This document shows positions 2,906 through 56,670 of a stretch of 64,000 nucleotides of DNA, piece by piece. A model generated the notes under the pieces. The model was not told the origin of the DNA. It saw only the letters and a list, made by a program, of their open reading frames with translations, and made no database searches. The stretch spans positions 936-64,935 of the forward strand of contig JASLOB010000001.1 of assembly GCA_030745695.1 (NCBI GenBank), given 5' to 3'. Source of the DNA: Candidatus Nanoarchaeia archaeon. GTDB taxonomy: Archaea; Nanobdellota; Nanobdellia; SCGC-AAA011-G17; JACPNG01. The position numbers were made by a program, and so were the translations under genes. Position 1 is the stretch's first letter, and every line of letters begins with the position of its first letter.

Positions 2906-3006
2906 ATTGCCATATCTATGTATGTTTTATTTTTTTTAAAATTCTTTATATTATATTAATCAATTAGATCTCTCTTAAGAATCATATTCCTAAAAATCAA
3001 TAAAAT

Positions 3007-3499: not shown

Positions 3500-4762
3500 C
3501 TATTTCCCTTCGGCTGTTAATCTTGCATTATCAATAAAACCATCAGGAGTCCAAAAACCTTTAAGGAAAGCTTTATCTATAAGACTTCTTCCCTCTCCTT
3601 CATAAGAAACACCACGCTTTTCAAATTCTTCCAAAGCTCTTTTAACTGGTTGAGCACAATATCTTAATTCACTAACTAAACTGTATTTTGGATTACCCTG
3701 GGTATCAAAACTATCCTTATGATATTCAACAAAACCTAAAGGAAAATTAGGATCTAATGTAACTTCAGATAATAGTCTAACTCTAGTGTCATAATCTAAA
3801 TCTTTATTACCTAAAAGAGAAATAGCATATTGACCCAATCTAGCTTCGTAATCAGATAATCTATTACCATCTTGAGCATCTTGGTATATCCCATCAAATT
3901 TATGTCCTATATCCAATTTTCTTTGAGTTTCAGGAGAATCCTTAACATCACCAAAAATAACTCTCTCATAAAATTGAGCAACAGATTCTAAAGTTGATTC
4001 ATTTACTGCTGAACTTTTTCTAAGGAAATAAGGAAGTCCATCTGATTTAGACAACATATGATTCAAACCATGACCCATTCCCTCATGACCATACAATCTA
4101 ATTAATTCTCTCTCCCTTATACCAAGACTACCATCTTCATTAAGATAATAAATATTTGGTATTCCTAATGCTAAAGTATTTGTCAGAGGACTAAAATAAG
4201 ATCTATCTTGTTCTGTAGGAACAGCATGTATATCCCTTAAAAAATCTCCCACTTCTGTCAATTGTTTCAACATTTTACCCAATGTAGTGTGATATCTTTG
4301 AATATCATCTTCTGCATTTTCTTGAGCCCTTCTTCTTATACTAGGAACGTCCAAAGGAAGTTGCAATTCATAACTTTCAACATCATTAGTTTTAAATAAT
4401 CTCTCAATAGATTCAAAAGCATCATCTCTATTCAACTCTAACCAAGGTCTTAATTCTTCTATATCTTTTCTAGGAATTCCATGAATATCAATCACAGTAT
4501 CAAAATCATAATGCCTACCACTTAACCTTTGTTCAATCCTACTAGCTTCAGCAACTAATCTTCTTTTTAATTCAGAATCAACTAATTCCCCTCTAGAATT
4601 CACATTTCTTACATCTGGTAAACTTTCTACTAATGAATTTAATCCACCGACTATATTAGCAGCTTCTTTATAAGGAAAAACTGTATATTTACTCTCAAAT
4701 CTACCTAATTTCTCTATTCTCTTTAATAATTTTTCAGCTTCCAAAACAATAACTTCATTCAT
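3500..4762 (-). CDS. hypothetical protein (420 aa) with an HEGMGH (HExxxH) motif; possible metal-dependent hydrolase
   Basis: Long ORF ending in TAG. It contains GHEGMGHGLNH, but the spacing is HExxxH rather than the canonical HExxH. Confidence 0.45.
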   Translation of the reverse strand: MNEVIVLEAEKLLKRIEKLGRFESKYTVFPYKEAANIVGGLNSLVESLPDVRNVNSRGELVDSELKRRLVAEASRIEQRLSGRHYDFDTVIDIHGIPRKDIEELRPWLELNRDDAFESIERLFKTNDVESYELQLPLDVPSIRRRAQENAEDDIQRYHTTLGKMLKQLTEVGDFLRDIHAVPTEQDRSYFSPLTNTLALGIPNIYYLNEDGSLGIRERELIRLYGHEGMGHGLNHMLSKSDGLPYFLRKSSAVNESTLESVAQFYERVIFGDVKDSPETQRKLDIGHKFDGIYQDAQDGNRLSDYEARLGQYAISLLGNKDLDYDTRVRLLSEVTLDPNFPLGFVEYHKDSFDTQGNPKYSLVSELRYCAQPVKRALEEFEKRGVSYEGEGRSLIDKAFLKGFWTPDGFIDNARLTAEGK

Positions 4763-6622: not shown

Positions 6623-6932
6623 GTAGGAAGGTGTCTAACTTTCGAGATTATCTTGAGGAAAGTCCGTCCACCAATTATAGGTTGCTTCTGCAAAGAAGTC
6701 CCAGAAATGGGAGGCAACCGCTAAGAAACGACACGGCCTATTAGAGCAAGGATGTTGTGAAAGTTTTAGTAATAGAACTGAGATAACCAACTGAGTATTT
6801 TGATAGGATACGTTGAAACGACGAGTCCCAACCGGTGCAAGTCTTAGACGCTTAGTTGAATGTTAGAATGAACTTTCAATGATCCATTTTTAATGGTTAG
6901 AGTTCAACAGAAGATGGCTTATGCCTTCCTAC
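6623..6932 (+). ncRNA. rnpB: RNase P RNA (archaeal type)
   Basis: The P4 5' strand (gaggaaagtccg at 6654..6665) and P4 3' strand (acagaag..ggcttatg at 6906..6923) are both present. A P1 helix forms between gtaggaagg and ccttcctac. Confidence 0.8.
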
Positions 6933-26217: not shown

Positions 26218-27186
26218 ATGAAGTCTGAATTTAACAGAGGATACACAGTTTATAAAGATGGGAAAAAAGAGCCATTTATAGTTGCTCCACATTCTGGACC
26301 AGCATTAGATGTTGTAACTTCTAGAGATGATCATTCTGAGACAGTAGCTAGTTTATGTTGGAAAAGACTAGGTGGGAGGTTGATTGTTAGTAGTATGCCA
26401 AGAGAAAGGTTATGGGGAATTGATTTTAATAGGGATATTCCAAAACTAAAAGACGCTTTAGATCATTTTAACATTTTTTTGAATAAAGAAGATGTTAATA
26501 AAAGATATTCATATATGAAAAAATATGGATGGGTAGCTAAAGATGAAAATGATTATGAAAAAAGATTAAAAATTTATCAAAGTTTTTGGGATGATGTTAG
26601 TAAAGGAGAATGTATAATCATAGTCCATAAAGCTTTTCCTAAAGTAAAATTTATTCCTAGTATAATGGATATCACAACATTTAGTGGAGAAAAAATAAAA
26701 AATAAATTAGTCAAAGAGATTGTTGAAGAGATAAATGGAAAATATTATTATTTTTTAGATAAAATTACAGATGATTATAAAGATGCTATAATCTATGAAT
26801 CAAAAAGAATGATATTAAACATATTAAGGATATATAAAACATTAAACTATGATAAAATTGGAGCCATATTTAGAGATAGTTTAAAAAAAGATTTAGAAAA
26901 AATTAATTTTTATGGAGACAAAATAGCTAAAAGAAGAATTAATGATAATTTAACTCCACATAATTATTTAGAGGGAGTAAAAAATGCATTAGAAAATATG
27001 CCTACCCCACAAGTAACTTTTGAAAATGCTTTTTTTGGAGATACTTCATTTGGTCCTAAAAGAAAATTATCTCCTTTAAAAAATAAAACAATAATACAAG
27101 TTGAAGGATCTGGATTTTTGAACTTTTGGCACCCACATATAGCTGCTGAAATGATTAAAGATATTTATGAAATGTTAAAAGAATAA
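26218..27186 (+). CDS. hypothetical protein (322 aa)
   Basis: ORF only. Confidence 0.4.
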   Translation: MKSEFNRGYTVYKDGKKEPFIVAPHSGPALDVVTSRDDHSETVASLCWKRLGGRLIVSSMPRERLWGIDFNRDIPKLKDALDHFNIFLNKEDVNKRYSYMKKYGWVAKDENDYEKRLKIYQSFWDDVSKGECIIIVHKAFPKVKFIPSIMDITTFSGEKIKNKLVKEIVEEINGKYYYFLDKITDDYKDAIIYESKRMILNILRIYKTLNYDKIGAIFRDSLKKDLEKINFYGDKIAKRRINDNLTPHNYLEGVKNALENMPTPQVTFENAFFGDTSFGPKRKLSPLKNKTIIQVEGSGFLNFWHPHIAAEMIKDIYEMLKE

Positions 27187-27313: not shown

Positions 27314-27733
27314 ATGTTTAATAGATCCTCTAGAAACTGTGAAAACTATCTTTACTTTGTATTTAGAGTGGTAATTGGATTAATGTTCATGCAACATAGT
27401 ATACAAAAACTTTTTGGAATGTTGGGTGGAAATTCTGTAGAGTTGTTTAGTTTATTTTGGTTTGCTGGAATAATTGAATTTTTTGGAGGGTTATCAATAG
27501 CTTTAGGATTGTTTACAAAAATAGTTGCATCAATTGCTGCTTTAGAAATGCTAGTAGCTTACTTTTATGCCCATGTTGGAATTTTAGATATTTTTACAAA
27601 AAAACTTCAATATATCCCAATATTAAATGGAGGAGAGCTAGCTTTACTTTATTTTGCTGCATTTTTAGTTTTAGCAATATACGGAGCTAAGAAATGGTCT
27701 TTAGATATAATATTATCTAAAAGAAATTTTTAA
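27314..27733 (+). CDS. DoxX-family membrane protein
   Basis: MFMQHSIQKLFG...FFGGLSIALGLF is DoxX-like. Confidence 0.6.
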   Translation: MFNRSSRNCENYLYFVFRVVIGLMFMQHSIQKLFGMLGGNSVELFSLFWFAGIIEFFGGLSIALGLFTKIVASIAALEMLVAYFYAHVGILDIFTKKLQYIPILNGGELALLYFAAFLVLAIYGAKKWSLDIILSKRNF

Positions 27734-28644
27734 ATATTTAATTCTCTTTTTATTATAAATCTAGAACTTACAACTCCTGATCCAAGATTTGCTTGAATTC
27801 TAAATTCGTTATATCTTACATTTAATATTGGATTGCTAGAATTTATTTCTGTATTTGTTTTTTCTGCAAATTTATTGATTAAAGAATTTAATCCTTCATT
27901 ATTACTAAATATAACATTAGTTTCCATTCTTTCATTTTGATAATCAACTAATATAGGTTTGTTTACCCCTTCACAAATGATAGAATTTAAGTTATGATCA
28001 TGAAATAAAGGATCAATTTTACTAAAATTATCTAAATCTCTATATAGATAATATTTGACATCTTGTAAAACTTCTTCTTTATACCCCATTTTTGTTTTTC
28101 TAGAAGCTTTTTTTATTCTTTTTAGAATTAGTTTATCATCCTTCAATACTTCTTTATCTTTCTTATATTTTTTGATGATGTATTCTTTTACTAACTTTAA
28201 CATATTCATATTTATTGAAGGTTCTATTAATTTATAGTGATACTTTCCTATCTCTTTAGATATAACAGCTCTGGCTAATACTTTTTTATCAGAAAGTAAT
28301 AAAGTATAAGAAGATTCTAAACTTTTTTCTGGGGTTTTAATTGGAGTTGGAGTTTTTAATGTTGGTTCATTTCTAATATCAGGAATTTGTTGTTTTATTG
28401 TTTGATGGGCTATAGGTCTTATTAATCTTTGAACTTTTTCAGTTGAAATTGCTTTTTGTCTTAGTTTTTCTTCACTTTTTTGATGCAGGGTTTTATATCC
28501 TAAAAATAATGCCCTTAGAAATCTTTCTCCAATTTTAGCCTCTTTTTCTTTAGCTACATTCTTATGAAGCAACCCGACTATATCATTTAACTCATCAGAA
28601 TCTGCTTTATGAGGAAAATCTTCTCTTATGAATTTAAGATCCAT
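27730..28644 (-). CDS. FlaI/ArlI (GspE/VirB11-like) secretion ATPase N-terminal domain only, truncated before Walker A
   Basis: YYLYRDLDNFSKIDPLFHD..ICEGVNKPILVDY...TNVIFSNNEGLNSLINKFAEKT...RIQANLGSGVVSSRFIIKRE matches the FlaI N-terminal region through to the IRKF-equivalent. The ORF stops where the ATPase core should begin, and the next gene is convergent. Confidence 0.55.
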   Translation of the reverse strand: MDLKFIREDFPHKADSDELNDIVGLLHKNVAKEKEAKIGERFLRALFLGYKTLHQKSEEKLRQKAISTEKVQRLIRPIAHQTIKQQIPDIRNEPTLKTPTPIKTPEKSLESSYTLLLSDKKVLARAVISKEIGKYHYKLIEPSINMNMLKLVKEYIIKKYKKDKEVLKDDKLILKRIKKASRKTKMGYKEEVLQDVKYYLYRDLDNFSKIDPLFHDHNLNSIICEGVNKPILVDYQNERMETNVIFSNNEGLNSLINKFAEKTNTEINSSNPILNVRYNEFRIQANLGSGVVSSRFIIKRELNI

Positions 28645-28645
28645 T

Positions 28646-28984
28646 TTAGAATCCTTCTTTATGTAATGGCTTTGGTGGTGGGAAATTACTCATACCTGTT
28701 TTTTCTTTTACATATCTTTCTAATAAAATTAAACCTCTTGCTATATTCTTATTTTGTTCTAACAACTCTTCTAGTCTTTTTGCAATTGGTTCATCTAATC
28801 CAGATTTAATATGTTTAGATGCTTCTTCAAACACACTAACCATATCATCTAATCTTTTAACAAGTTTATTTACAACCAATAATAATTCTACAGTTTTATC
28901 TTGTAATGCTACACTACTACTTACTAATTGTTTTGATACACTATCAGAAGTTTTGGTTGTCTTTTTTTCTCCTTTTTTTGGCAT
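28646..28984 (-). CDS. hypothetical protein (112 aa)
   Basis: ORF only. Confidence 0.4.
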   Translation of the reverse strand: MPKKGEKKTTKTSDSVSKQLVSSSVALQDKTVELLLVVNKLVKRLDDMVSVFEEASKHIKSGLDEPIAKRLEELLEQNKNIARGLILLERYVKEKTGMSNFPPPKPLHKEGF

Positions 28985-29025: not shown

Positions 29026-31692
29026 TTAATTCTTGGCTCTTGCACTTAAATAAACTCTTTCTCCATCCCCTGCTTTTTTAATAACAATTAAACTACTTCT
29101 TTGTAATCTTAGTATAGCATCATTAAAACTTGATTTAGACAATCCTAATTTATTCATCAAATCTTGTTTTAGAAGTCCATCTGTTTTAATTAATCTATTA
29201 ATCATTATTTTTTCTGTTTTATTCATTAGATTCATAATGATTAATAGATTTGTATATTTCTTTTTTTTAAACAATTTTAAGATATCTAGAATCTTATCTT
29301 TAAATCTCATAATTAGATAAGCAGCTAATAAAGACAATAAAATTATTATTAAAGAAAAAGGAGAAGATTCTTTCTTGAATTCTTCTGTAACCCCTACATC
29401 TTTAATTAAATAAAACATTGATTTATCAAAATTCTTTTTTGTAAAAAATCCATAATTATCTTTCTTACATATAATTCCCATTAATAGATCATTCTTTTGG
29501 CCAAAGGTATAAATATCTTGTTTGCTTGGTTCACAAATTCCGTCAGGGTGACTATGAATTGTTCCTAGATTATTTAATTTAGAACAATCTTGTGCTTCTA
29601 TTGCAGCTATACTTTTACTTACAGTTGGAACTTCTTCTAAATCATAAATTTGATATCTTCCATTATTATAATCTCCTTTTATACAAGCCACAAATTCTAC
29701 ATCTCCACTTTCTTGATACAATTCATATAATCTATTATTAACATCTGATTCAATTATTATTGTAGCACTATGATCTACCCCACTTATCAAAGAAAAAGAA
29801 ATTGTAGATAAATTTAGATATAATATAACTAATGAAAATACAATAAATAATAAAGCTACAATAAATATTCCAATATCTTGTTTTGAAATCTTTCTTTTTT
29901 TAACATGATAATACAAATAAACTAAACTTGGAACTAAGATTAAAGTTATTACTAACCATCTAAAAAAAGAACTTAGATTAGATCTTGTAACACATTGTCC
30001 ACTATTATCACAATATTGATCTATGGAGCATACAGCATCTCTACAATTATTACAAGTTTCTCCTGAATCTATTACTCCATTACCACATAAAGTTTCTACT
30101 TCTGGAGTTTCAGTTATAGTTGTTGATCTTATCTCTCCTAATAACCCACTAAACAAATCACTTGCTTTTTTTCTTATTCCTTTTTCTTCTACTTCAATTT
30201 CTTCTTGTTTTATTTCTTCTAATAAAATTTCAATTTCTTCTTGTTGTTCTTGATCTTCTTCTTTTATGTTTCCTAATACTCCTTCTACCTCTTCTAAGAT
30301 CATACTTTTTAGTTGTGTTGTTCCTAAGGGTGTTGATTCTGTGTTAACTAATTGACAACCCTCATCTACTGCTCCATTACAATTATTATCTATATTATCA
30401 CATATTTCTACTGAAGAGGAACCTAAACTTGCACTACATCCTACTATATCCCTGCCTTTACATTCAAACACTCCAGAATTTTGACATATCCCAAATCCAA
30501 CACTACATACTCCTCCAAGTTTATACCCTTCGTCTACTGTTCCATCACAATTGTTATCTAAACCATCACATATCTCTTCAGAACTTTTTATTCCACCCTC
30601 ACATAAAGTGCCCCATAACCCATTTTGACATGTTTGCTCACCTTTTTCACAAACCCCTTCATCAATTCCACAAGGCCTTTTACTTCCAGTATTACAAACA
30701 CAACCCTCGTCTACTGTCCCATCACAATTGTTATCTAGATTATCTATACATACTTCTGTTTGACTATAAGTAGAGATAGTGTTGTAATCACATGACTGGT
30801 ATCTTCCATCTACACATAAATGTTTACTTCCACTACAAACACCATCTTGATTTGAACAGCTTTTTGTTTGTCCTTCTTCACATTCTCTACAATCAGGATC
30901 ATTAATATCAGTAAAACCATCACAATCATTATCAATATTATCAAAACACTGAGGATCGTTCAAATTTCCAGTGAATGATTCTCCTGATGGTTGTTTAAAA
31001 GTAGGAACACTAGGTGTGCCTTGAGATGCACTAGAGAAATAACATGTTTTAGCTCCAAAAGTATCACAAACAGTTTGTTTAGAACATGTAATCTTTGAAC
31101 CCCCTGAACAACTCCACCCATTAATACTGCAACTTTTTGTTTGAGATGTAGTAAAATAACTTAATCCTTCAAAGTATCCAGCTTGTTTACAACTAATTTG
31201 GTGATAAGGTTCTTTTCCACCACTACAACATTCAATTCCATCTCTCTCCCCCCCTGAATCCAAATCACAAGAGTTACTACAACAAACGTCTCCACTAGAA
31301 CAAGAACAAGATAAGAATACACTAGACCCCACTCTAGCTATGTTAACATCGCCAGGATAATTTAATCTTAATCTCTCTACATATGTTGGAGAAAATTCAA
31401 TATATACTTCAGTAAAAGTTCGACTGCCAATTCTTGGGGTATTGCCTAAAAAAATTCCAGAATCAAATTCGGAGTTAACATTCTCAACTCGTAAAATCTG
31501 CCCCTTTTCTTCATCACTAACATAAATAGTTACTTTAGAGATTTTAGCATTAATAGGCTCTGAAATAAATCCAGTTACTATACCTCCTGAACCAAGATTT
31601 CTAAAAGAGATATCTCTTTCTTGAGATGAAACAAAATTTAATGATAATATAAATAGAACTAGAAGTATTAAGATAAAACCTCTTTTTTTCAT
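29026..31692 (-). CDS. large secreted/membrane Cys-rich repeat protein with a JAMM-type motif and a C-terminal winged-helix domain (888 aa)
   Basis: A signal peptide is followed by four or more tandem DNxCDGTVDEGC-type Cys repeats and a Glu-rich linker. Two TM segments follow, then HSHPDGICEPSKQD (HxHx7Sx2D), a third TM, and a MarR/ArsR-like wHTH tail. Confidence 0.6.
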   Translation of the reverse strand: MKKRGFILILLVLFILSLNFVSSQERDISFRNLGSGGIVTGFISEPINAKISKVTIYVSDEEKGQILRVENVNSEFDSGIFLGNTPRIGSRTFTEVYIEFSPTYVERLRLNYPGDVNIARVGSSVFLSCSCSSGDVCCSNSCDLDSGGERDGIECCSGGKEPYHQISCKQAGYFEGLSYFTTSQTKSCSINGWSCSGGSKITCSKQTVCDTFGAKTCYFSSASQGTPSVPTFKQPSGESFTGNLNDPQCFDNIDNDCDGFTDINDPDCRECEEGQTKSCSNQDGVCSGSKHLCVDGRYQSCDYNTISTYSQTEVCIDNLDNNCDGTVDEGCVCNTGSKRPCGIDEGVCEKGEQTCQNGLWGTLCEGGIKSSEEICDGLDNNCDGTVDEGYKLGGVCSVGFGICQNSGVFECKGRDIVGCSASLGSSSVEICDNIDNNCNGAVDEGCQLVNTESTPLGTTQLKSMILEEVEGVLGNIKEEDQEQQEEIEILLEEIKQEEIEVEEKGIRKKASDLFSGLLGEIRSTTITETPEVETLCGNGVIDSGETCNNCRDAVCSIDQYCDNSGQCVTRSNLSSFFRWLVITLILVPSLVYLYYHVKKRKISKQDIGIFIVALLFIVFSLVILYLNLSTISFSLISGVDHSATIIIESDVNNRLYELYQESGDVEFVACIKGDYNNGRYQIYDLEEVPTVSKSIAAIEAQDCSKLNNLGTIHSHPDGICEPSKQDIYTFGQKNDLLMGIICKKDNYGFFTKKNFDKSMFYLIKDVGVTEEFKKESSPFSLIIILLSLLAAYLIMRFKDKILDILKLFKKKKYTNLLIIMNLMNKTEKIMINRLIKTDGLLKQDLMNKLGLSKSSFNDAILRLQRSSLIVIKKAGDGERVYLSARAKN

Positions 31693-31797
31693 AAAAATAA
31701 TAAAGAATTTTTGTATTTAAAGTTTCTTAGTTAATTAATCTCTTTTTTAAGATAGTATACTAAAATATTCTTTATAAAAATATTGTCTTATAATTCT

Positions 31798-32132
31798 TTA
31801 GAAAAGTACATCCTTTGATTTCCCTCCAAAAGCTTCAGAGAATTTTTGGAATTCATTTTGATTTAATGCTCCTTCTAACTTACCTTCGTTATTTGCTCTA
31901 TGCGTATAAAATGAAGCATGATTTGAATATGGGACTTGCCCTTTAACAAAAGATTTTGGAGGAAAAGATAAAGTTTCACGATCATCTGCTCTCTCATGCC
32001 TTTTACATCCTAACTCATCACACCACCAATGATATCCTACTTTATACGTACTCTCCCTCTTTATTCTAGCATAATAAACATGTTGATGTTTGCATTAGGA
32101 TTACCTTCTTGAACTACTTCTACTTCTGACAT
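31798..32132 (-). pseudogene. frameshifted small gene (ATG-initiated 24-codon frame plus an overlapping about 97-codon start-less frame containing YHWWCDELGCKRHE)
   Basis: Two overlapping reading frames lie directly downstream of the thermosome gene; the longer one has no start codon. Confidence 0.3.
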
Positions 32133-32137
32133 TTTTA

Positions 32138-39750: not shown

Positions 39751-41571
39751 CTAATAGCTTACTAAAACTTCTACATCCCTCCCATATAACTTTCTCAAAT
39801 CTTCAAATATTTTTTCTTTAATAAAAACATTTTCAGGAATCTTAACTTTCTTTAATTGTTCTTCTAACTCTTCTAAAGAACTTTTTTCAATATCTATTAA
39901 GCTACCATTTTTAATTTTAGCTTTAGAAACTTCTTCTCTTTTCTCTAGATCATTTGTTATAAATGCTTTATCATCTAATAATAAAACTTCTCCATACTTC
40001 TCTCCATATTTGAATCTAATCTTAGCTCTTTCTAATTCAACTCCTCTTTTTCTTTGTATAAATTCAACCATAGTTTTTATGAATAGTATAGCTTCTTTGT
40101 TTACTTTTTCAATTTCTTGCTTACTCAATTTTTTAGAAGTGTAATCTTTTTTAGACTTTACAATTAATTTTAAAATTCTTAAGAATTTTTCTGGGATCAA
40201 TCCTTTATCAACTAAATTTTCTTTAAATGAAGATTCTAATTTTTTAATACTAATCTCTCTTACTCCATTAATAAACAAAGCATCTCTTGATATAGCAATA
40301 CAAGAATCATAATTATGCAATACTGATTCTCCTTGAGATTTTTTCTCTATTTGTGTAAATAATTTTCTGATTCTTTTCATATAATCTTCTAAATCTTTTA
40401 ACAAAGAATCAACTTCCTTTCCAGAAATTTCTCTAACCCTACCATGTTCAACATCTTTGTAATATTTGAATAATTTAGCTAATATGTCTACATATTTTTT
40501 TTCTAGTAATTTTTCTTTTTTAACAAATATTTCTTCCATAACTTTAACAGTCTCTCTTGGAGTTGTTGGAGGCAATCCATACAACATTATAGCGGCTTGT
40601 GCTGGGTTTAATGCAGCATAATATAAATCTTCTCCTACCATCCCAAGTAACTTTGATTTTGTTCTTTCTAACAATCTCTCTCCAAGATCCATGTTCATAT
40701 CAATCGCTTCTGGACTAGGTTTTAATTTACCCATATGTAATAATAATTTCCATGGCATAAACACTCCTTTATCAAATAAAGGAACTCCATCTCTTAAGAA
40801 TGTATAAATAACAGGTTGAGCTTCTTTAACAGAATCCCAAAAATCTGTTAAAATATGTGTTTGAACATGAAAATTTGCTTTTACTCCTGAAGCTTTTGAA
40901 GCACTAAAACCCATATCTTGAATTATTGCTCTTAATCTTTCTTTTAATTCAACTCTAGGCATTTTTTTTACATCAGTGTCATCTATAACAATAGAAACAT
41001 CTATATCTCCTGGATTTGCATCCCCTCTAAATAAACTACCAATAGCAATGTAACTTAGAACATATTTCTCAAATTTCTTTATAGTCATCTCTTTATGAAT
41101 CTCTGCTGTTTTTAATGCCCCTAACATTCCTTTATCATAGAGTATAGTTCCCATTCCAATTAATCCTAGAATTTCATACTTTCCATCAAAACACATCTCT
41201 TTTAATTCTGATATAATTAGAGTATTTGGTTTGATATTCTCATCAATATTTTTAGCAGAATCTTCTATTATATTAGTTAATTTATCTTTTAGTTCTAATT
41301 TAGACATCTTTTTAGAATCAGAATCATCAATTAAAACTAAAACATTAATCCAATCTTTTCTTTCTTCTCTTTCTTTTTGGGTTAATTCTTGTTCTTCTTC
41401 TGGTGTTAATTTTTCTGGAGGTAATAATTCTATACCAACTACATATTCTTCAAATTTCTTTAGAACTTCTTTCTTAAATTTCTCTACTTTTGCTTTAATT
41501 TGAGATAATTTTTTTTGAATATCTTTAGGAATCTCCAATCCTTCAGGAAGTTCTGGAATTTTATCTACCAT
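39751..41571 (-). CDS. hypothetical protein with tandem minimal nucleotidyltransferase-like domains and a long helical C-terminus
   Basis: The second repeat has GSLFRGDANPGDIDVSIV (the [GS]x9-13Dx[DE] signature); the first repeat is degenerate. Confidence 0.45.
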   Translation of the reverse strand: MVDKIPELPEGLEIPKDIQKKLSQIKAKVEKFKKEVLKKFEEYVVGIELLPPEKLTPEEEQELTQKEREERKDWINVLVLIDDSDSKKMSKLELKDKLTNIIEDSAKNIDENIKPNTLIISELKEMCFDGKYEILGLIGMGTILYDKGMLGALKTAEIHKEMTIKKFEKYVLSYIAIGSLFRGDANPGDIDVSIVIDDTDVKKMPRVELKERLRAIIQDMGFSASKASGVKANFHVQTHILTDFWDSVKEAQPVIYTFLRDGVPLFDKGVFMPWKLLLHMGKLKPSPEAIDMNMDLGERLLERTKSKLLGMVGEDLYYAALNPAQAAIMLYGLPPTTPRETVKVMEEIFVKKEKLLEKKYVDILAKLFKYYKDVEHGRVREISGKEVDSLLKDLEDYMKRIRKLFTQIEKKSQGESVLHNYDSCIAISRDALFINGVREISIKKLESSFKENLVDKGLIPEKFLRILKLIVKSKKDYTSKKLSKQEIEKVNKEAILFIKTMVEFIQRKRGVELERAKIRFKYGEKYGEVLLLDDKAFITNDLEKREEVSKAKIKNGSLIDIEKSSLEELEEQLKKVKIPENVFIKEKIFEDLRKLYGRDVEVLVSY

Positions 41572-41628: not shown

Positions 41629-42345
41629 TTATTCTTTGAATATTTTATTAAATCTTTCATATAATAAATCATCTATCTCACTGGCAGTGTATTGTACACG
41701 AAAATTATATTGTGAAAGAGCTTCTTCTATAATTTCTTTTTCTCTTAATAGTACCTTTGTTTTTCCAAAAATCATATGTTCAATGTTTTTAGCAGTTCTT
41801 AACATTTCTACATCTCTAATGTCTGCTTCTGTAAGGTTCGCTTTCATCATATTTGCTTCACCAAGATGTGCACCCATAAGGCAAGCGCCCCTCATAGATG
41901 CTACACTAAGATCTGCTCTTTGAAAATTCGTCTTTATAAGACATGTTTTAGAAAGACGAGAATATTTAAGGTTTGCTTGTATAAGGTTCACATTAGATAA
42001 ATCCGAAAAGCTTATGAATGCTCTTTCAAAATTTGCTCCATAGAAGTTAGCCCCACTAAGTTGCGAACAACGAAGATCTACTTTATGACCTTTAACATAT
42101 GGTAGGTATAAACCTAAAGCTTTTAAATGCCCCAAGTCAGAACCATCAAATATAATAGGGCTATTTTCTAGATCTTGTTCTCTTAAATATCTTTGTATTT
42201 CTCTATAATCTTCATGACCACTTAAATCTAATCCAACTAATTTTATTTCTGAAAAATCTCTTTCTCCAGATAAAACTTTCTTTATAAATTCTTCTTCTTT
42301 CATACTGTTTGGATGAGATATCATATTTGTCCTCACTATACTCAA
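41629..42345 (-). CDS. pentapeptide-repeat protein
   Basis: Tandem A(D/N)LxxAxLxxA-type pentapeptide repeats. Confidence 0.65.
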   Translation of the reverse strand: MSIVRTNMISHPNSMKEEEFIKKVLSGERDFSEIKLVGLDLSGHEDYREIQRYLREQDLENSPIIFDGSDLGHLKALGLYLPYVKGHKVDLRCSQLSGANFYGANFERAFISFSDLSNVNLIQANLKYSRLSKTCLIKTNFQRADLSVASMRGACLMGAHLGEANMMKANLTEADIRDVEMLRTAKNIEHMIFGKTKVLLREKEIIEEALSQYNFRVQYTASEIDDLLYERFNKIFKE

Positions 42346-42456: not shown

Positions 42457-43371
42457 ATGAAAGAATTTCAAAAAATAAAAGATTTTGAGGATATTTTAGG
42501 ACAAGAAGAATCAAAAAAGCAATTAAAATCTGCTTTAATGATTAGAAGAAATATTATTTTAGTCGGTCCACCTGGAGTTGGAAAAACAACTTTAGCAAAA
42601 AATGTATCTAAAATAAATAAAAAAGGTAAGTTCATTAGAGTGCAAGGATCTCCTGATTTGAATGTAGAAGATTTAATTGGAGATATTGATCCAATAAAAG
42701 CATTAAAACATGGTCCAACCTCTCTAGAAGCTTTCACACCAGGAAAAATTTTCAAAGCAGATAAAGGAGTTTTGTTCTTTGATGAAATTAATAGATGTCC
42801 TGAAAAATTACAAAATTCATTATTACAAGCTTTAGAAGAAAAAAAAGTTACAATAGGAAATTATGATATTGATTTTGATGCAGATTTTATTTTTATTGGA
42901 AGTATGAATCCAGAAGATTTTGCTGGAACTGAAAAGTTAAGTGAAGTTTTATTAGACAGATTTGATATGATCTATATGTCCTATCCTGAAACTTTAGATT
43001 TAGAAAAACAAATTATAAATTTAAAAGGTAATAAATTAGAAGTAGAATTTCCAGATGATCTATTAACTCAAGCTGTATTATTTGTTAGATTACTAAGAGA
43101 AAATAAAGATCTAGAAAGAGTTCCTTCTGTTAGAGCTTCTTTAGGATTGTATGAAAGAGCACAAAGTAATGCTATATTAAACAATAAAAAGAAAGTAGAT
43201 ATAGAAGATGTAAAAGAAGCAATTATTTCTGTGATAGCTCATAGAATTAAATTAAAACCAAGTGTAAAATACTTAACAAATTCAAATAAATTCATTGAAA
43301 AAGAATTAAGTGATTTCTTAGATAAAAAACAAGATCCAAGACAAACAGACAAAAGTGGTGATTTACCGTAG
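42457..43371 (+). CDS. MoxR-like AAA+ ATPase
   Basis: Walker A GPPGVGKTT and the Walker B/sensor region LFFDEINRCPEKLQNSLLQALEE are present. Confidence 0.75.
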   Translation: MKEFQKIKDFEDILGQEESKKQLKSALMIRRNIILVGPPGVGKTTLAKNVSKINKKGKFIRVQGSPDLNVEDLIGDIDPIKALKHGPTSLEAFTPGKIFKADKGVLFFDEINRCPEKLQNSLLQALEEKKVTIGNYDIDFDADFIFIGSMNPEDFAGTEKLSEVLLDRFDMIYMSYPETLDLEKQIINLKGNKLEVEFPDDLLTQAVLFVRLLRENKDLERVPSVRASLGLYERAQSNAILNNKKKVDIEDVKEAIISVIAHRIKLKPSVKYLTNSNKFIEKELSDFLDKKQDPRQTDKSGDLP

Positions 43372-44503
43372 CAGTATAAAAGGAAGTATAGAAGAGAAAG
43401 AAGGAAAATTAAAAAAACAAAATAAAGAAGATAAACTTTTGAGTTCTATTTTAGAAGGTAAAAAATCAGAAGAAGGAAAATTATTAAGAAATGCATTAAA
43501 TAATAATTTATTTTCTTTTAATCCTGATATGATGTTTCAACAAATTGTAAAAAATTATTCTTTAGCTAAAGAGATATATGGAGAGTCTTTCATAAGACAA
43601 ATTGCAAATGAAAATGATGTAGGATTTCCAGAAGTTCAAAGGAAGATTAAACAAAAAATATTAAATAAATTTGAAGAAATGCAAGATAATCAGATTATAA
43701 ATAAAGATTTAGAGATAACAGAAGAAGGATTAAAATTTGCTGCATTATCATTATATATTGAAGAGATTGATAATCTAGTTTCTAAAGGTTTAATTGGAGA
43801 GAAGTTCAATAAAGAAAAATCTCATTATGGATCTAAAGAAGATGTTAAAGAATTTAAAAAAGGAGATAGGTATAGAGATATTGCATTAAGAAAATCTATT
43901 AAAGTAGCAATAAAAAGATCTCATAAAAATATAGAAAAAAGAGATTTAAGAAGTTTTGAAAAAGAGTCTAAAGGGAAAATAAATATTGTTTATGGGTTAG
44001 ATGCTTCTGGTAGTATGAAAGGTAATAAAATTGATATGTGTAAAAAAGCAGGGGTTGCTCTAGCATTTAAAGCAATAGAAGAAAAAGATGAAGTTGGTTT
44101 GTTAGTTTTTGGATCTAAAGTTGAAGATATTGTACATCCAACACATGATTTTATGATGTTATTAAATAAAATAGCAAGAATTAGAGCTAAACAAGAAACA
44201 AATATAGCTTCTACAATAATGAAAGCTATTGAGATGTTTCCTAATGATGATTCTACTAAACATTTAATTTTGATAACAGATGCAATGCCAACTAAAGGAA
44301 AATATCCAGAAAAAGAAACATTAAATGCTGTTGAGAATGCATGTAGTTGTGGGATAACTATTTCTATGATTGGAATAAATTTAGATAAAAAAGGAAAAAT
44401 ATTAGCTGAAAAGATTTCTCAGGTAGGTAATGGAAAGTTACAAATAGTAAAAAATTTAGAAGATTTAGATATGGTTGTGTTAGAGGATTATTATAGTTTA
44501 TAA
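43355..44503 (+). CDS. von Willebrand factor A (VWA) domain protein with MIDAS motif, partner of MoxR
   Basis: DASGSM...T..TD is a MIDAS motif. The gene overlaps the MoxR gene. Confidence 0.7.
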   Translation: MVIYRSSIKGSIEEKEGKLKKQNKEDKLLSSILEGKKSEEGKLLRNALNNNLFSFNPDMMFQQIVKNYSLAKEIYGESFIRQIANENDVGFPEVQRKIKQKILNKFEEMQDNQIINKDLEITEEGLKFAALSLYIEEIDNLVSKGLIGEKFNKEKSHYGSKEDVKEFKKGDRYRDIALRKSIKVAIKRSHKNIEKRDLRSFEKESKGKINIVYGLDASGSMKGNKIDMCKKAGVALAFKAIEEKDEVGLLVFGSKVEDIVHPTHDFMMLLNKIARIRAKQETNIASTIMKAIEMFPNDDSTKHLILITDAMPTKGKYPEKETLNAVENACSCGITISMIGINLDKKGKILAEKISQVGNGKLQIVKNLEDLDMVVLEDYYSL

Positions 44504-54089: not shown

Positions 54090-54187
54090 CGCCCTGACCG
54101 GGATTCGAACCCGGGTTGTAGCCTCGACAGGGCATCACGGTATATGATTAAATATACTTACGTGCTAGGCCACTACACTATCAGGGC
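54090..54187 (-). tRNA. tRNA-Asp(GTC) precursor with a 25-nt intron in the 5' strand of the anticodon stem (between positions 28/29)
   Basis: Removing 54158..54134 gives a perfect cloverleaf with anticodon arm tagcc-ctGTCga-ggcta and T-loop ttcgaat. The gene is 3 nt from tRNA-Lys. Confidence 0.55.
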
Positions 54188-56480: not shown

Positions 56481-56486
56481 ATACTC

Positions 56487-56581
56487 TGGGCCTAGACGGA
56501 TTTGAACCGTCGACCTCTGGCTGACCTAAGCCAAAGTGGCCATATAAGACCAGCGCTCTAACCAAGCTGAGCTATAGGCCC
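56487..56581 (-). tRNA. tRNA-Ile(TAT) precursor with a 20-nt intron at the canonical 37/38 position
   Basis: Ile-type body gggcctatagctcagcttggttagagcg, anticodon stem ctggt/gccag, loop cttata|a after removing 56542..56523. Confidence 0.55.
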
Positions 56582-56670
56582 ACACTTCAAAAATGGATTA
56601 GTTAACTTTTAAATGTTTCTTATATGTTGTCCATAGCAAAATTTATAACATACTTCTTTAGATTAATCTC

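What the first reader, a model, noticed from the sequence alone, without database searches (positions are those of the whole stretch)
29026..31692. 888-aa secreted Cys-rich repeat protein fused to TM segments, a JAMM-type metal motif and a C-terminal winged-helix domain
The architecture reads: signal peptide, beta-rich N-domain, four or more tandem DNxCDGTVDEGC-like disulfide/calcium-type repeats, a Glu-rich linker, two TM helices, a domain containing HSHPDGICEPSKQD (an exact HxHx7Sx2D JAMM/MPN+ signature), a third TM, and a MarR/ArsR-like wHTH tail. A membrane-tethered transcription-factor-like tail combined with an extracytoplasmic Cys-repeat sensor and a JAMM metalloprotease-like module is not an architecture I recognise. 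It could be a one-component trans-membrane signalling or processing protein. Two proteins that may be partners follow on the same strand (28646..28984, and the FlaI N-terminal fragment at 27730..28644).
Basis: seen in the sequence. Interest (0 to 1): 0.55.

Follow-up and report, generated by a model that had tools for sequence, protein, structure and literature searches.

The report
Cell-surface JAB metalloprotease tethered to a winged-helix tail
A tiny symbiotic-type archaeon (Woesearchaeota) encodes a membrane protein that most likely puts a zinc protease domain, otherwise known only from inside cells (the ubiquitin-removing JAB/MPN+ type), on the outside of the cell and wires it through the membrane to a DNA-binding-type domain inside. 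It belongs to a large, so far unnamed family of outward-facing JAB proteins.

Summary
Window 29026..31692 (-) is a real 888-aa gene. An independent Woesearchaeota MAG carries an 885-aa ortholog, with dN/dS of 0.31 overall and 0.09 to 0.15 in the JAB and wHTH parts.

The anatomy is:
- signal peptide
- unassigned beta-rich, Cys-rich N-domain
- four PF11617 (MopE-type) repeats
- acidic linker
- 6-Cys CGNG knot
- TM hairpin
- JAB/MPN+ domain with the full E…HSHx7Sx2D set
- third TM helix
- wHTH

The AlphaFold model of the JAB region matches AfJAMM, Rpn11 and CSN5. The tail folds as H-H-H-beta-beta.

The new points are these:
- **Location.** The JAB domain is predicted to be extracytoplasmic.
- **Disulfides.** It carries four invariant Cys. 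One pair corresponds to the AfJAMM C74–C95 disulfide.
- **Family.** It belongs to a family with about 190 clusters (50% identity) at E<=1e-10. Most members are 150-200-aa signal-anchored JAB proteins. The genomic contexts I examined are all DPANN archaea. No Pfam or NCBIfam model captures the family.
- **Architecture.** The JAB–TM–wHTH core recurs in at least nine diverged relatives. The large Cys-rich ectodomain is a lineage-specific addition.

Best reading: a surface-anchored ecto-JAMM peptidase coupled to a membrane-tethered wHTH regulator, working as a one-component transmembrane module. Substrate, DNA binding and signalling are inferred, not shown.

The parts
29026..31692 (-). Whole gene, 888 aa plus stop
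   Evidence: ORF list. An 885-aa ortholog sits in an independent Woesearchaeota MAG (L007). dN/dS is 0.31 overall.
31714..31721 (-). Probable TATA box (TTTAAATA), about 22-29 nt upstream of the ATG; implies the gene has its own promoter and a near-leaderless mRNA
   Evidence: Conserved in six orthologous or related loci, while the rest of the upstream spacer is not. Promoter function is inferred.
31621..31692 (-). Signal peptide, residues 1-24
   Evidence: KKR n-region followed by a hydrophobic core. Near-identical signal peptides occur in P0002, P0003 and L007.
30958..31620 (-). N-terminal ectodomain, residues 25-245: 13 Cys, predicted beta-rich, no known family
   Evidence: No Pfam, NCBIfam or PDB match. 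AF2 pLDDT is 39. It is the fastest-evolving part (58% identity, dN/dS 0.48). The CSCSSGDVCCSNSC motif is shared with P0010.
30352..30957 (-). Four MopE-type (PF11617) Cys/Asp repeats with intervening Cys-rich modules, residues 246-447
   Evidence: Pfam gives 68 bits against a cut-off of 27, in 4 stretches. Repeat anchors are at residues 254, 320, 379 and 435. The same module type occurs in P0017.
30088..30351 (-). Glu-rich linker, residues 448-535
   Evidence: 23 D+E, no Cys. Also present in P0002.
29989..30087 (-). 6-Cys 'CGNG' knot, residues 536-568
   Evidence: All six Cys and the G/D/E positions are invariant in the four closest relatives. dN/dS is 0.08. In P0004, P0005, P0006 and P0011 it is joined directly to the JAB domain.
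29782..29976 (-). TM hairpin: TM1 residues 573-595, cytoplasmic loop KKRKISKQD, TM2 residues 607-637
   Evidence: Hydropathy and charge analysis. AF2 helices at model residues 46-69 and 75-107. The hairpin is absent as a unit in P0004, P0005, P0006 and P0011, so topology is preserved.
29389..29781 (-). JAB/MPN+ (JAMM) metallopeptidase domain, residues 638-768; predicted extracytoplasmic; four invariant Cys (C670, C703, C720, C742)
   Evidence: Prok-JAB scores 24.7 bits against a cut-off of 25. AfJAMM matches by sequence and by fold. Invariant residues come from the 116-sequence alignment.
29515..29556 (-). JAMM motif HSHPDGICEPSKQD, residues 713-726; the catalytic Glu E666 lies upstream
   Evidence: Regex match. 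Aligned to AfJAMM H67, H69, S77 and D80.
29302..29361 (-). TM3, residues 778-797, followed by a Lys-rich juxtamembrane helix
   Evidence: Hydropathy; 6 K/R and no acidic residues in residues 805-825. AF2 helix at model residues 249-293.
29029..29256 (-). Cytoplasmic winged helix-turn-helix, residues 813-888
   Evidence: AF2 gives H-H-H-beta-beta with pLDDT 82-91. Profile hits to the RPC6 WH domain (8e-5), MarR and Lrs14. HTH_24, MarR_2, TrmB and TFIIE_alpha match 2-4 of the 6 tails scanned. dN/dS is 0.09.
28646..28984 (-). 112-aa coiled-coil protein; a conserved downstream neighbour and possible partner
   Evidence: It follows the JAB gene in the window, L007, L004, L002, L016 (45% identity) and L019 (49% identity). 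It matches no family.
27730..28644 (-). 304-aa stand-alone N-terminal domain of a GspE/FlaI-type secretion ATPase; no ATPase domain; a conserved neighbour
   Evidence: PDB 2oap residues 56-218 at E=2.7e-14. NCBIfam FlaI profile positions 91-215 of 527. The same length is seen in L007, L004, L002 and L016.

Best explanation
The gene encodes a polytopic surface protein of a Woesearchaeota (DPANN) archaeon.

**What is shown or strongly predicted**
- A cleavable signal peptide exports a modular, disulfide-rich ectodomain. This consists of an unknown N-domain, four MopE-type repeats, an acidic linker and a 6-Cys knot.
- A TM hairpin returns the chain to the outside.
- There a catalytically complete JAB/MPN+ zinc-peptidase domain is displayed. 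It is probably stabilised by two disulfides.
- A third TM helix connects it to a cytoplasmic winged-helix domain.

**What is inferred about mechanism**
- The protein is a membrane-tethered one-component module.
- The variable Cys-rich ectodomain captures an extracellular partner, either a protein of the cell's own surface or one on a host cell.
- The ecto-JAB engages, and usually cleaves, an extended peptide or isopeptide tail.
- The resulting change in occupancy or oligomeric state passes through TM3 to the wHTH.
- The wHTH then binds DNA at the membrane, in the manner of ToxR, CadC or ArnR. Alternatively it recruits cytoplasmic partners such as the conserved coiled-coil protein and the FlaI-N-domain protein encoded downstream.

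In most relatives the same ecto-JAB is just a signal-anchored surface peptidase, so peptidase action outside the cell is the ancestral function. The wHTH coupling is a derived addition.
For: **Anatomy**
- ORF. PF11617 at 68 bits.
- JAMM residues E666, H713, H715, S723 and D726 are present. They are invariant or nearly so in 116 relatives.
- MPN fold by AF2 plus Foldseek: AF2198 at E=1.6e-7 and TM 0.75, then Rpn11, CSN5 and BRCC36.
- wHTH by AF2 secondary structure at pLDDT about 90, and by profile hits to RPC6, MarR and Lrs14 WH domains.

**Outside location of the JAB domain**
- Signal peptide, three TM helices and the positive-inside charge pattern.
- P0004, P0005, P0006 and P0011 have signal peptide, CGDG knot and JAB with no TM between them.
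- P0070, P0124, P0036 and P0086 carry Cys-rich repeats after the JAB domain.
- Cytoplasmic-type domains (wHTH, CBS, TPR, GGACT) always lie across one TM helix from the JAB.
- Four invariant Cys. C720 and C742 align to the crystallographic C74–C95 disulfide of AfJAMM.
- In the short forms the N-terminal flank of the TM has net charge +0.8 and the C-terminal flank -0.6.

**A real, selected architecture**
- 885-aa ortholog.
- dN/dS is 0.09 for the wHTH, 0.15 for the JAB and 0.28-0.48 for the ectodomain.
- JAB–TM–wHTH recurs in P0002, P0004, P0005, P0010, P0011, P0012, P0014 and P0017, at identities as low as 27% among those measured.
- 9 of 10 wHTH-bearing members keep the catalytic set. One (P0017) has lost it but keeps the architecture, which is compatible with a binding or sensing role for the domain.

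**Precedent**
- Membrane-bound one-component regulators exist in archaea: ArnR and ArnR1 (PMC6396743).
Against: - No experiment or dedicated topology predictor was available. Topology rests on hydropathy, charge and comparative architecture.
- I could not read the model coordinates, so Cys–Cys distances were not measured.
- The wHTH hits are all below the curated Pfam and NCBIfam cut-offs. DNA binding is untested, and no conserved operator was found upstream; only a TATA box is conserved.
- P0003 keeps the neighbours but has lost TM3 and the wHTH. Most family members have no cytoplasmic domain at all. The wHTH is therefore dispensable for the core function.
- No extracellular substrate is known for any JAB domain. 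JAB peptidases are thought to act only on Ubl tails (PMC3239186), and no Ubl gene lies nearby.
- The synteny with the coiled-coil and FlaI-N genes includes the thermosome gene. It may therefore be inherited gene order rather than functional linkage.
Confidence: 0.5

Rival explanations
1. It is purely a surface peptidase and adhesin. The ecto-JAB processes or sheds surface proteins, or cuts peptide or isopeptide cross-links in a host cell wall (for example gamma-glutamyl/epsilon-lysyl bonds of pseudomurein or peptidoglycan stem peptides). The Cys-rich ectodomain acts as an adhesin. The wHTH is only a cytoplasmic docking or anchoring module for the coiled-coil and FlaI-N-domain proteins, with no role in transcription.
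For: - Most family members are just a signal anchor plus JAB.
- P0003 lacks the wHTH yet keeps the two neighbours.
- The neighbours are conserved in relatives whose JAB protein or neighbour proteins are only about 30-50% identical to those of the window.
- A GGACT (gamma-glutamylamine cyclotransferase-like) domain is fused across a TM helix to the ecto-JAB in P0096, and a GGACT-like gene lies next to P0004 in L006. This hints at gamma-glutamyl isopeptide chemistry.
- The ectodomain evolves fast, as adhesins do.
Against: - The wHTH is the most constrained part of the protein (dN/dS 0.09). It is retained in at least nine diverged members.
- Its best matches are nucleic-acid-binding WH domains.
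- The GGACT link is seen in only two cases.
- No host or substrate information exists.
Confidence: 0.3
2. It is a self-processing surface protein. The ecto-JAB cleaves its own ectodomain in cis, or in trans between neighbouring molecules, for example in the acidic linker. This releases the Cys-rich adhesin. It is then followed by intramembrane proteolysis that frees the wHTH, in the manner of Notch, SREBP or anti-sigma-factor regulated proteolysis.
For: - A peptidase and a long flexible acidic linker lie on the same side of the membrane.
- The membrane-tethered wHTH would need either to be released or to have the nucleoid close by.
- Regulated-proteolysis precedents exist (own knowledge).
Against: - The short forms have no ectodomain to cleave, so self-cleavage cannot be the family's general role.
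- P0004 and P0005 have no linker.
- No site-2 protease gene was seen near the locus.
Confidence: 0.1
3. The JAB-like domain is not a peptidase here. It acts as a nucleic-acid- or nucleotide-binding or hydrolysing module, as proposed for the RadC and Tox-JAB clades, or as a second structural metal site formed by the four Cys.
For: Aravind and co-workers argue that several divergent JAB clades act on nucleic acids (PMC3239186; PMC3482391). The family falls below the Prok-JAB gathering score.
Against: - The closest sequence and structure relatives are AfJAMM and the AMSH/Rpn11 deubiquitinases, not RadC.
- The full peptidase motif, including the Glu and Ser, is conserved.
- One Cys pair equals a known disulfide, not a metal site.
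Confidence: 0.07
4. It is an artefact: a chimeric assembly, or two genes read through as one ORF.
For: One JGI contig breaks inside the gene, just upstream of TM1. The closest homologs are much shorter (271-451 aa).
Against: - An independent MAG has a collinear 885-aa ORF.
- All regions have dN/dS below 1.
- The signal peptide of the 888-aa protein matches the signal peptides of the short homologs. The extra 460 aa sit between that signal peptide and the shared acidic linker, so they are an insertion, not a fusion.
- P0017 (722 aa) has a comparable large ectodomain.
Confidence: 0.02

Closest known systems
AfJAMM (AF2198, PDB 1oi0/1r5x) and archaeal JAMM/MPN+ desampylases
   Same: It is the best sequence and structure match. 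It has the same E…HSHx7Sx2D zinc site. The Cys pair equivalent to its C74–C95 disulfide is present (PMC300881).
   Different: AfJAMM is a soluble 124-aa cytosolic protein. It has no signal peptide or TM, and, in the stretch of AfJAMM that aligns, no counterpart of the second Cys pair (C670–C703). Known archaeal JAMMs act on SAMP/Ubl tails inside the cell. Here the domain is predicted to be outside, with no Ubl partner.
Eukaryotic JAMM deubiquitinases (Rpn11, CSN5, BRCC36, AMSH/Sst2)
   Same: MPN fold and catalytic motif.
   Different: They are intracellular, act within large complexes on ubiquitin or NEDD8 isopeptides, and lack the disulfides and the membrane anchor.
Secreted Tox-JAB-1 and Tox-JAB-2 domains of bacterial polymorphic toxins
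   Same: They are the only previously described exported prokaryotic JAB domains. The authors state that all other prokaryotic JAB domains known then were intracellular (PMC3482391).
   Different: Those are C-terminal toxin tips on RHS-type proteins. They are delivered into target cells, paired with immunity proteins, and proposed to be nucleases. This one is an archaeal, membrane-anchored, 4-Cys JAB closest to the peptidase clades.
Membrane-bound one-component regulators (archaeal ArnR/ArnR1; bacterial ToxR, CadC, TcpP)
   Same: They share the logic of a DNA-binding HTH tethered to the membrane and coupled to a membrane or extracytoplasmic input (PMC6396743; ToxR and CadC from own knowledge).
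   Different: ArnR has an N-terminal HTH, a HAMP domain and two C-terminal TM helices, with no ectodomain. ToxR and CadC have an N-terminal OmpR-type wHTH. None has a peptidase as its outer domain. No homology to them was detected.
ADAM-type membrane-anchored metalloproteases, and BlaR1/MecR1
   Same: ADAMs combine a zinc protease, Cys-rich adhesive modules, a TM helix and a cytoplasmic tail on the cell surface. BlaR1 couples an outer sensor to a zinc protease and a wHTH repressor (own knowledge). These are functional analogies.
   Different: The folds are unrelated (zincin versus JAB). In BlaR1 the protease is cytoplasmic and the wHTH is a separate protein.
MopE / PF11617 repeat proteins
   Same: Four repeats match the C.D.(I/L)DN.C(D/N)G.(V/T)D consensus, well above the cut-off (consensus quoted in PMC3278476).
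   Different: The copper site of MopE itself involves His and kynurenine elsewhere in that protein (PMC3423442 abstract). Metal binding by these repeats is unproven. Here they are best treated as disulfide/Ca-type structural or adhesive modules.

Membership tests
JAB/MPN+ (JAMM) metallopeptidase superfamily | E-x(n)-H-[ST]-H-x7-S-x2-D zinc/catalytic motif | tested here: met
   E666, H713, S714, H715, S723 and D726. H, H, S and D are invariant and E nearly so in 116 relatives.
JAB/MPN+ (JAMM) metallopeptidase superfamily | MPN (deaminase-like) fold | tested here: met
   AF2 pLDDT is 80-90 over the domain. Foldseek top hits are AF2198 (E=1.6e-7, TM 0.75), Rpn11, CSN5 and BRCC36.
JAB/MPN+ (JAMM) metallopeptidase superfamily | Score above the curated Pfam Prok-JAB (PF14464) threshold | tested here: inconclusive
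   24.7 bits against a cut-off of 25. Relatives score 17-18 bits. The family sits at the edge of the model.
JAB/MPN+ (JAMM) metallopeptidase superfamily | Zinc binding and (iso)peptidase activity | not testable with these tools
   Needs purified protein.
Ubl-processing JAMM enzymes (Rpn11, CSN5, HvJAMM1 type) | Intracellular location with a ubiquitin-like substrate or partner | tested here: not met
   The domain is predicted to be extracytoplasmic. No Ubl, E1 or other partner gene was found in the neighbourhoods examined.
AfJAMM-like subgroup | Cys pair forming the loop-to-beta5 disulfide (AfJAMM C74–C95) | tested here: met
   C720 and C742 align to C74 and C95 and are invariant in the family. 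Actual bond formation was not tested.
Winged helix-turn-helix DNA-binding domains | Three helices followed by a beta-hairpin wing | tested here: met
   AF2 gives H825-836, H842-849, H853-865, E869-874 and E877-882 in full-length numbering, at pLDDT 82-91.
Winged helix-turn-helix DNA-binding domains | Significant match to a curated wHTH family | tested here: inconclusive
   HTH_24 scores 14-19 bits against a cut-off of 21.9. MarR_2, TrmB and TFIIE_alpha are sub-threshold. The profile against PDB gives the RPC6 WH domain at 8e-5, and MarR and Lrs14 at about 1e-2.
Winged helix-turn-helix DNA-binding domains | DNA binding | not testable with these tools
   The tail is basic (21 K+R against 8 D+E over residues 798-888), but that is only suggestive.
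PF11617 Cu-binding_MopE repeats | Repeat consensus above the curated threshold | tested here: met
   68 bits against 27, in four stretches. Motif positions are listed.
Membrane-bound one-component transcription regulators (ToxR, CadC, ArnR kind) | Cytoplasmic DNA-binding domain, TM segment and extracytoplasmic or membrane input in one polypeptide | tested here: met
   Met at the level of predicted architecture only.
Membrane-bound one-component transcription regulators (ToxR, CadC, ArnR kind) | Homology to the ToxR/CadC (OmpR-type) or ArnR (HTH-HAMP) domains | tested here: not met
   No such Pfam, NCBIfam or PDB hits. The domain order is reversed, with the wHTH at the C-terminus.
DHHC palmitoyltransferase (PF01529) | DHHC catalytic tetrapeptide in a cytoplasmic Cys-rich domain | tested here: not met
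   The Pfam score of 32.2 exceeds the cut-off of 28.7 over residues 546-636. However, there is no DH[HY]C anywhere in the protein. The matched Cys-rich stretch is extracytoplasmic and is followed by two TM helices. This is a compositional false positive.
GspE/FlaI/VirB11-type secretion ATPases (for the 304-aa neighbour) | N-terminal domain homologous to GspE/FlaI | tested here: met
   PDB 2oap residues 56-218 at E=2.7e-14, and FlaI 4ii7 at 1e-3. NCBIfam FlaI profile positions 91-215 of 527.
GspE/FlaI/VirB11-type secretion ATPases (for the 304-aa neighbour) | C-terminal RecA-like ATPase domain with Walker A and B motifs | tested here: not met
   The ORF stops at residue 304, where the ATPase domain would begin. 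The next gene is DoxX on the other strand. Relatives have the same length.

The most novel reading that the evidence does not exclude
DPANN archaea possess a widespread, previously unrecognised class of extracellular, disulfide-stabilised JAB/MPN+ isopeptidases. These act on cell-surface or host-envelope substrates, for example gamma-glutamyl/epsilon-lysyl isopeptide links. In the subfamily represented here, the ecto-JAB is the input domain of a transmembrane one-component regulator, so that cleaving or binding an external peptide directly controls a membrane-tethered wHTH transcription factor. This would be the first JAB domain shown to work outside a cell and the first peptidase-gated membrane transcription factor in archaea.
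Probability: 0.3. Interest if true: 0.75.

Novelty: new variant of a known kind. Interest (0 to 1): 0.6.

Why it matters
JAB/MPN+ enzymes are the metalloprotease arm of ubiquitin-like signalling. They have been regarded as intracellular and restricted to Ubl tails (PMC3482391, PMC3239186).

A large family of outward-facing, four-cysteine JAB domains in DPANN archaea implies an unknown extracellular substrate class. It offers a handle on how these tiny episymbionts remodel their own surface or their host's.

The wHTH-coupled members add a compact candidate for trans-membrane signalling in organisms with very few recognisable signalling systems.

The family is effectively invisible to current annotation. 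It falls below the Pfam threshold, has no NCBIfam model, and carries a false DHHC hit. Defining it would therefore improve annotation of hundreds of 'hypothetical' proteins.

All of this is directly testable with a recombinant 130-aa domain and a 90-aa tail.

Tried and rejected
- **N-domain structure.** Single-sequence AF2 of residues 25-250 gave pLDDT 39, so the model is unusable. I ran no fold search on it.
- **DHHC palmitoyltransferase.** The Pfam hit is above its cut-off, but I rejected it: there is no DHHC motif and the topology is wrong.
- **Defence or phage origin.** PADLOC gave only weak generic JAB hits (E about 3e-3). PHROGs gave nothing for the gene. The window is housekeeping archaeal chromosome.
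- **Assembly chimera or read-through.** Rejected.
- **Search limits.** The word-indexed homolog searches found only 4, 9 and 34 proteins. The exhaustive HMMER search was what revealed the family. The genome-contig scan with alignment A4 failed because it had no conserved stretch. With A2 it found only two Woesearchaeota MAGs, so the taxonomic range of the family is known only from a few gene contexts and two source names.
- **Literature.** Searches for an extracytoplasmic or DPANN JAMM returned nothing relevant. This is absence of evidence within an open-access library only.
- **Operator search.** I looked for a conserved operator upstream of the gene. Only a TATA box is shared.
- **Short-form gene context.** I looked for a conserved operon around the short-form ecto-JAB genes and found none.
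- **Second JAB gene.** There is none in the window.
- **Disulfide geometry.** Cys–Cys distances in the model could not be measured, because coordinates are not exposed.

Full report
**1. Observation**

Window 29026..31692 (-) is an uninterrupted ATG-initiated ORF of 888 aa. The window is low-GC (about 26-30%) archaeal chromosome. It carries 23S rRNA, RNase P RNA, split RNA polymerase subunits, thermosome, CCA-adding enzyme, aCPSF1, Kae1 and RtcB. The nearest genomes are Candidatus Woesearchaeota MAGs.

- signal peptide, residues 1-24
- Cys-containing N-domain, residues 25-245
- four DNxC(D/N)G repeats anchored at residues 254, 320, 379 and 435
- Glu-rich linker, residues 448-535
- TM1 at about 573-595 and TM2 at about 607-637
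- HSHPDGICEPSKQD at residues 713-726
- TM3 at about 778-797
- a basic tail

It is invariant in relatives.

**2. The gene is real**

A JGI contig with identical sequence breaks inside the gene. However, an independent MAG (CAYUGZ010000011, L007) has a collinear 885-aa ORF followed by the same two genes.

Nei-Gojobori dN/dS between the two orthologs is 0.31 overall. By region it is:

| Region | dN/dS |
|---|---|
| CGNG knot | 0.08 |
| wHTH | 0.09 |
| TM hairpin | 0.10 |
| JAB | 0.15 |
| MopE repeats | 0.28 |
| N-domain | 0.48 |

The core is strongly constrained and the outer ectodomain evolves fast.

The signal peptides of the short homologs P0002 and P0003 match that of the 888-aa protein. The extra 460 aa or so sit between the signal peptide and the shared acidic linker. 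They are an insertion of modules, not a gene fusion artefact.

**3. Domain identities**

*MopE repeats.* Pfam PF11617 scores 68 bits against a cut-off of 27, in four stretches.

*JAB domain.*
- Prok-JAB scores 24.7 bits against a cut-off of 25.
- phmmer against PDB finds AfJAMM/AF2198 at E=1e-3.
- A 116-sequence family profile finds AfJAMM at 1e-6, followed by the AMSH/Sst2 deubiquitinases, with Rpn11 and CSN5 only marginal.
- An AlphaFold2 model of residues 530-888 (9-sequence alignment, mean pLDDT 73, JAB blocks 80-90) hits AF2198 first in Foldseek (E=1.6e-7, TM 0.75). Rpn11, CSN5, BRCC36 and the Caldiarchaeum Rpn11 homolog follow.
- The catalytic Glu (E666), both His, the Ser and the Asp are present and conserved.

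*wHTH tail.*
- The model gives helix-helix-helix-strand-strand at pLDDT 82-91.
- A profile of six tails hits the RPC6 winged-helix domain (8e-5), MarR, Lrs14, Z-alpha and TFIIE-alpha domains in PDB.
- HTH_24, MarR_2, TrmB and TFIIE_alpha match 2-4 of the six tails scanned in Pfam, all below the curated cut-offs.

*False positive.* A Pfam DHHC hit above its cut-off is spurious. No DH[HY]C motif exists, and the matched stretch is simply the Cys knot followed by two TM helices.

*N-domain.* It matches nothing, and its single-sequence model is unusable (pLDDT 39).

**4. Topology: the JAB domain is outside**

Hydropathy and charge give this order: signal peptide, out, TM1, the KKRKISKQD loop inside, TM2, out (JAB), TM3, then the KKKK-rich tail and wHTH inside.

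Independent comparative evidence agrees:
- **No TM between knot and JAB.** P0004, P0005, P0006 and P0011 have a signal peptide, the CGDG knot and then the JAB domain directly. A single TM and a short wHTH-like tail follow. The true start of P0004, MKRCYLLILSFIFIAPLTMA, lies upstream of the called start.
- **Hairpin as a unit.** The TM hairpin is present or absent as a unit, which preserves the sidedness.
- **Short forms.** In 142 short forms an N-terminal TM precedes the JAB. The N-terminal flank has net charge +0.8 and the C-terminal flank -0.6.
- **Cys-rich repeats after the JAB.** P0070, P0124, P0036 and P0086 carry them.
- **Cytoplasmic-type domains.** wHTH, a CBS pair, TPR and GGACT are always separated from the JAB by one TM helix.
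- **Four invariant Cys.** They are as invariant as the zinc ligands (C670, C703, C720, C742). 99 of 129 short forms have exactly four Cys.
- **A known disulfide.** C720 and C742 align with C74 and C95 of AfJAMM, which form a disulfide in the crystal between the beta4–alpha2 loop and beta5 (PMC300881; alignment). The same structural positions are predicted here.

The second pair, C670–C703, is inferred. I could not measure distances in the model.

**5. The family**

Word-indexed searches found few relatives. An exhaustive HMMER scan of 1.84 billion cluster representatives gave 598 hits at E<=1e-3 and 193 at E<=1e-10. A few of these are driven by the Cys knot alone, for example P0015 and P0048.

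Of the sequences retrieved, 129 are 235 aa or shorter and consist of an N-terminal TM plus a JAB domain with the motif HxH-x(5-16)-S-x2-D.

Contexts of three short forms are archaeal and DPANN-like, with thermosome, ABCE1, PTH2 and PolB genes. One is named as a Nanoarchaeota archaeon. There is no conserved operon. Two contexts lie beside DsbD/thioredoxin or VKOR genes.

None of the members tested reaches the Prok-JAB threshold, and several match no Pfam family at all. NCBIfam has no model for the window protein.

[quoted passage not shown] I found no later description in the open-access library. That is not proof of absence.

**6. The wHTH-coupled subfamily**

The same core (signal peptide, Cys modules, CGNG knot, TM hairpin, JAB, TM, wHTH) occurs in:
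- P0002 (434 aa)
- P0010 (451 aa)
- P0012 (360 aa)
- P0017 (722 aa, with its own large ectodomain including a MopE-type module)

The hairpin-less version occurs in P0004, P0005, P0011 and P0014.

Nine of ten members keep the catalytic set. P0017 has lost it. P0003 ends cleanly after the JAB domain and has no TM3 or wHTH.

**7. Neighbourhood**

A conserved TATA box (TTTAAATA, 31714..31721) lies about 22-29 nt upstream of the ATG in all six related loci. This indicates the gene has its own promoter and a near-leaderless transcript.

Downstream, after a 41-nt gap, comes a 112-aa coiled-coil protein. After a further 1-nt gap comes a 304-aa protein. The 304-aa protein is the N-terminal domain of a GspE/FlaI-type ATPase (2oap residues 56-218, E=2.7e-14). 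It ends where the ATPase domain would begin.

The order thermosome, JAB gene, coiled-coil, FlaI-N is kept in L007, L004, L002 and L016. In L016 the neighbours are 45% and 33% identical to those of the window. In L019 the thermosome, the JAB gene and the coiled-coil gene (49% identical) are kept in that order, but the contig ends inside the next gene and its 41-aa fragment gave no significant match. The order is not kept next to P0005 or P0017.

This is suggestive of linkage. Because the housekeeping thermosome gene is part of the block, inherited gene order cannot be excluded.

**8. Mechanism**

*Shown or strongly predicted.* The protein is a surface-exposed, catalytically complete, disulfide-type JAB domain. 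It is attached by one TM helix to a cytoplasmic wHTH and preceded by a modular, rapidly evolving Cys-rich ectodomain.

*Inferred (confidence about 0.5).* It is a membrane-tethered one-component module. The ectodomain captures an external protein. The ecto-JAB binds or cleaves an extended peptide or isopeptide tail. The state is relayed to the wHTH, which acts on DNA at the membrane. ArnR/ArnR1 are an archaeal precedent for membrane-bound regulators (PMC6396743).

*Rivals.*
- A pure surface peptidase and adhesin whose wHTH docks the coiled-coil and FlaI-N proteins (0.3). The two GGACT associations hint at gamma-glutamyl isopeptide chemistry.
- Self-shedding followed by regulated proteolysis (0.1).
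- A non-peptidase JAB (0.07).
- An artefact (0.02).

**9. Verdict**

The finding is best classed as a new variant of known kinds: a JAB metallopeptidase and a membrane-tethered wHTH regulator. Its distinctive feature is the extracytoplasmic, four-cysteine JAB domain. It represents a large unannotated family, found so far in DPANN archaeal contexts.

Function, substrate and DNA binding remain to be tested. Interest is 0.6.

Noticed in passing
window 27730..28644 (-): A 304-aa stand-alone N-terminal domain of a GspE/FlaI-type secretion ATPase. It ends just after the FTIRKF-like motif and has no Walker A/B domain. The same truncated length is conserved in four other lineages (L007, L004, L002, L016), so it is a maintained NTD-only protein of unknown role, not a fragment.
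   Followed up: partly
window 28646..28984 (-): A 112-aa coiled-coil protein with no family match. It follows the JAB–wHTH gene in six lineages, at identities down to 45-49%.
   Followed up: partly
L017 5001..7169 (P0017, GCA_964447685): A 722-aa relative keeps the full architecture (signal peptide, ectodomain, MopE, CGDG, TM-TM, JAB, TM, wHTH) but has lost the HxH…S..D motif. It is a probable pseudo-enzyme or binding-only JAB.
   Followed up: partly
L018 6001..6837 (P0096); L006 1126..1308: A GGACT/AIG2-like (gamma-glutamylamine cyclotransferase-type) domain is fused, across one TM helix, to an ecto-JAB. Separately, a GGACT-like gene lies just downstream of P0004. This hints at a link to gamma-glutamyl isopeptide metabolism.
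   Followed up: partly
P0124, P0133 (sequences only): Other trans-membrane combinations occur in the family: CBS pair–TM–ecto-JAB–Cys repeats, and TPR–TM–ecto-JAB.
   Followed up: partly
L011 5567..7971; L018 10176..11805: Extracytoplasmic disulfide machinery lies beside or near ecto-JAB genes in two unrelated contigs: DsbD_TM with thioredoxin/redoxin genes in one, and VKOR with DsbD_TM in the other. A DoxX gene abuts the cluster in the window (27314..27733).
   Followed up: no
window 29785..30057 (residues 546-636): The Pfam DHHC palmitoyltransferase model scores above its gathering threshold here and in P0002, but there is no DHHC motif. This is a likely source of mis-annotation.
   Followed up: yes
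window 31693..32137: The spacer between the thermosome gene and this gene is 445 nt in the window, with a comparably long upstream region in L007. It is 38-47 nt in four related genomes. Only the last 45 nt or so (the promoter) is conserved between the window and L007. The rest has only tiny ORFs and may be a decayed insertion.
   Followed up: partly
L001 1..60 (JGI Ga0373649_0001304): An independent metagenome contig with identical sequence ends inside this gene, just upstream of TM1. Its truncated 296-aa product was annotated 'proteasome lid subunit RPN8/RPN11'.
   Followed up: yes
window 54090..54187 and 56486..56582 (-): Two tRNA-like genes of 95-98 nt that ARAGORN could not assign; Rfam calls the second a tRNA. 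They probably contain introns.
   Followed up: no
window 1..2917 and 6623..6932: An archaeal 23S rRNA (cut at the window start) and RNase P RNA. No 5S or 16S rRNA lies adjacent within the window.
   Followed up: no
window 39751..41571 (-), 3500..4762 (-), 26218..27186 (+): Proteins of 606, 420 and 322 aa with no Pfam family. The 322-aa one is conserved next to the cluster in L004 and L007.
   Followed up: no
window 42457..44503 (+): A MoxR-type AAA ATPase followed by a VWA-domain protein, a classic MoxR–VWA pair. A pentapeptide-repeat protein lies just upstream at 41629..42345 (-).
   Followed up: no
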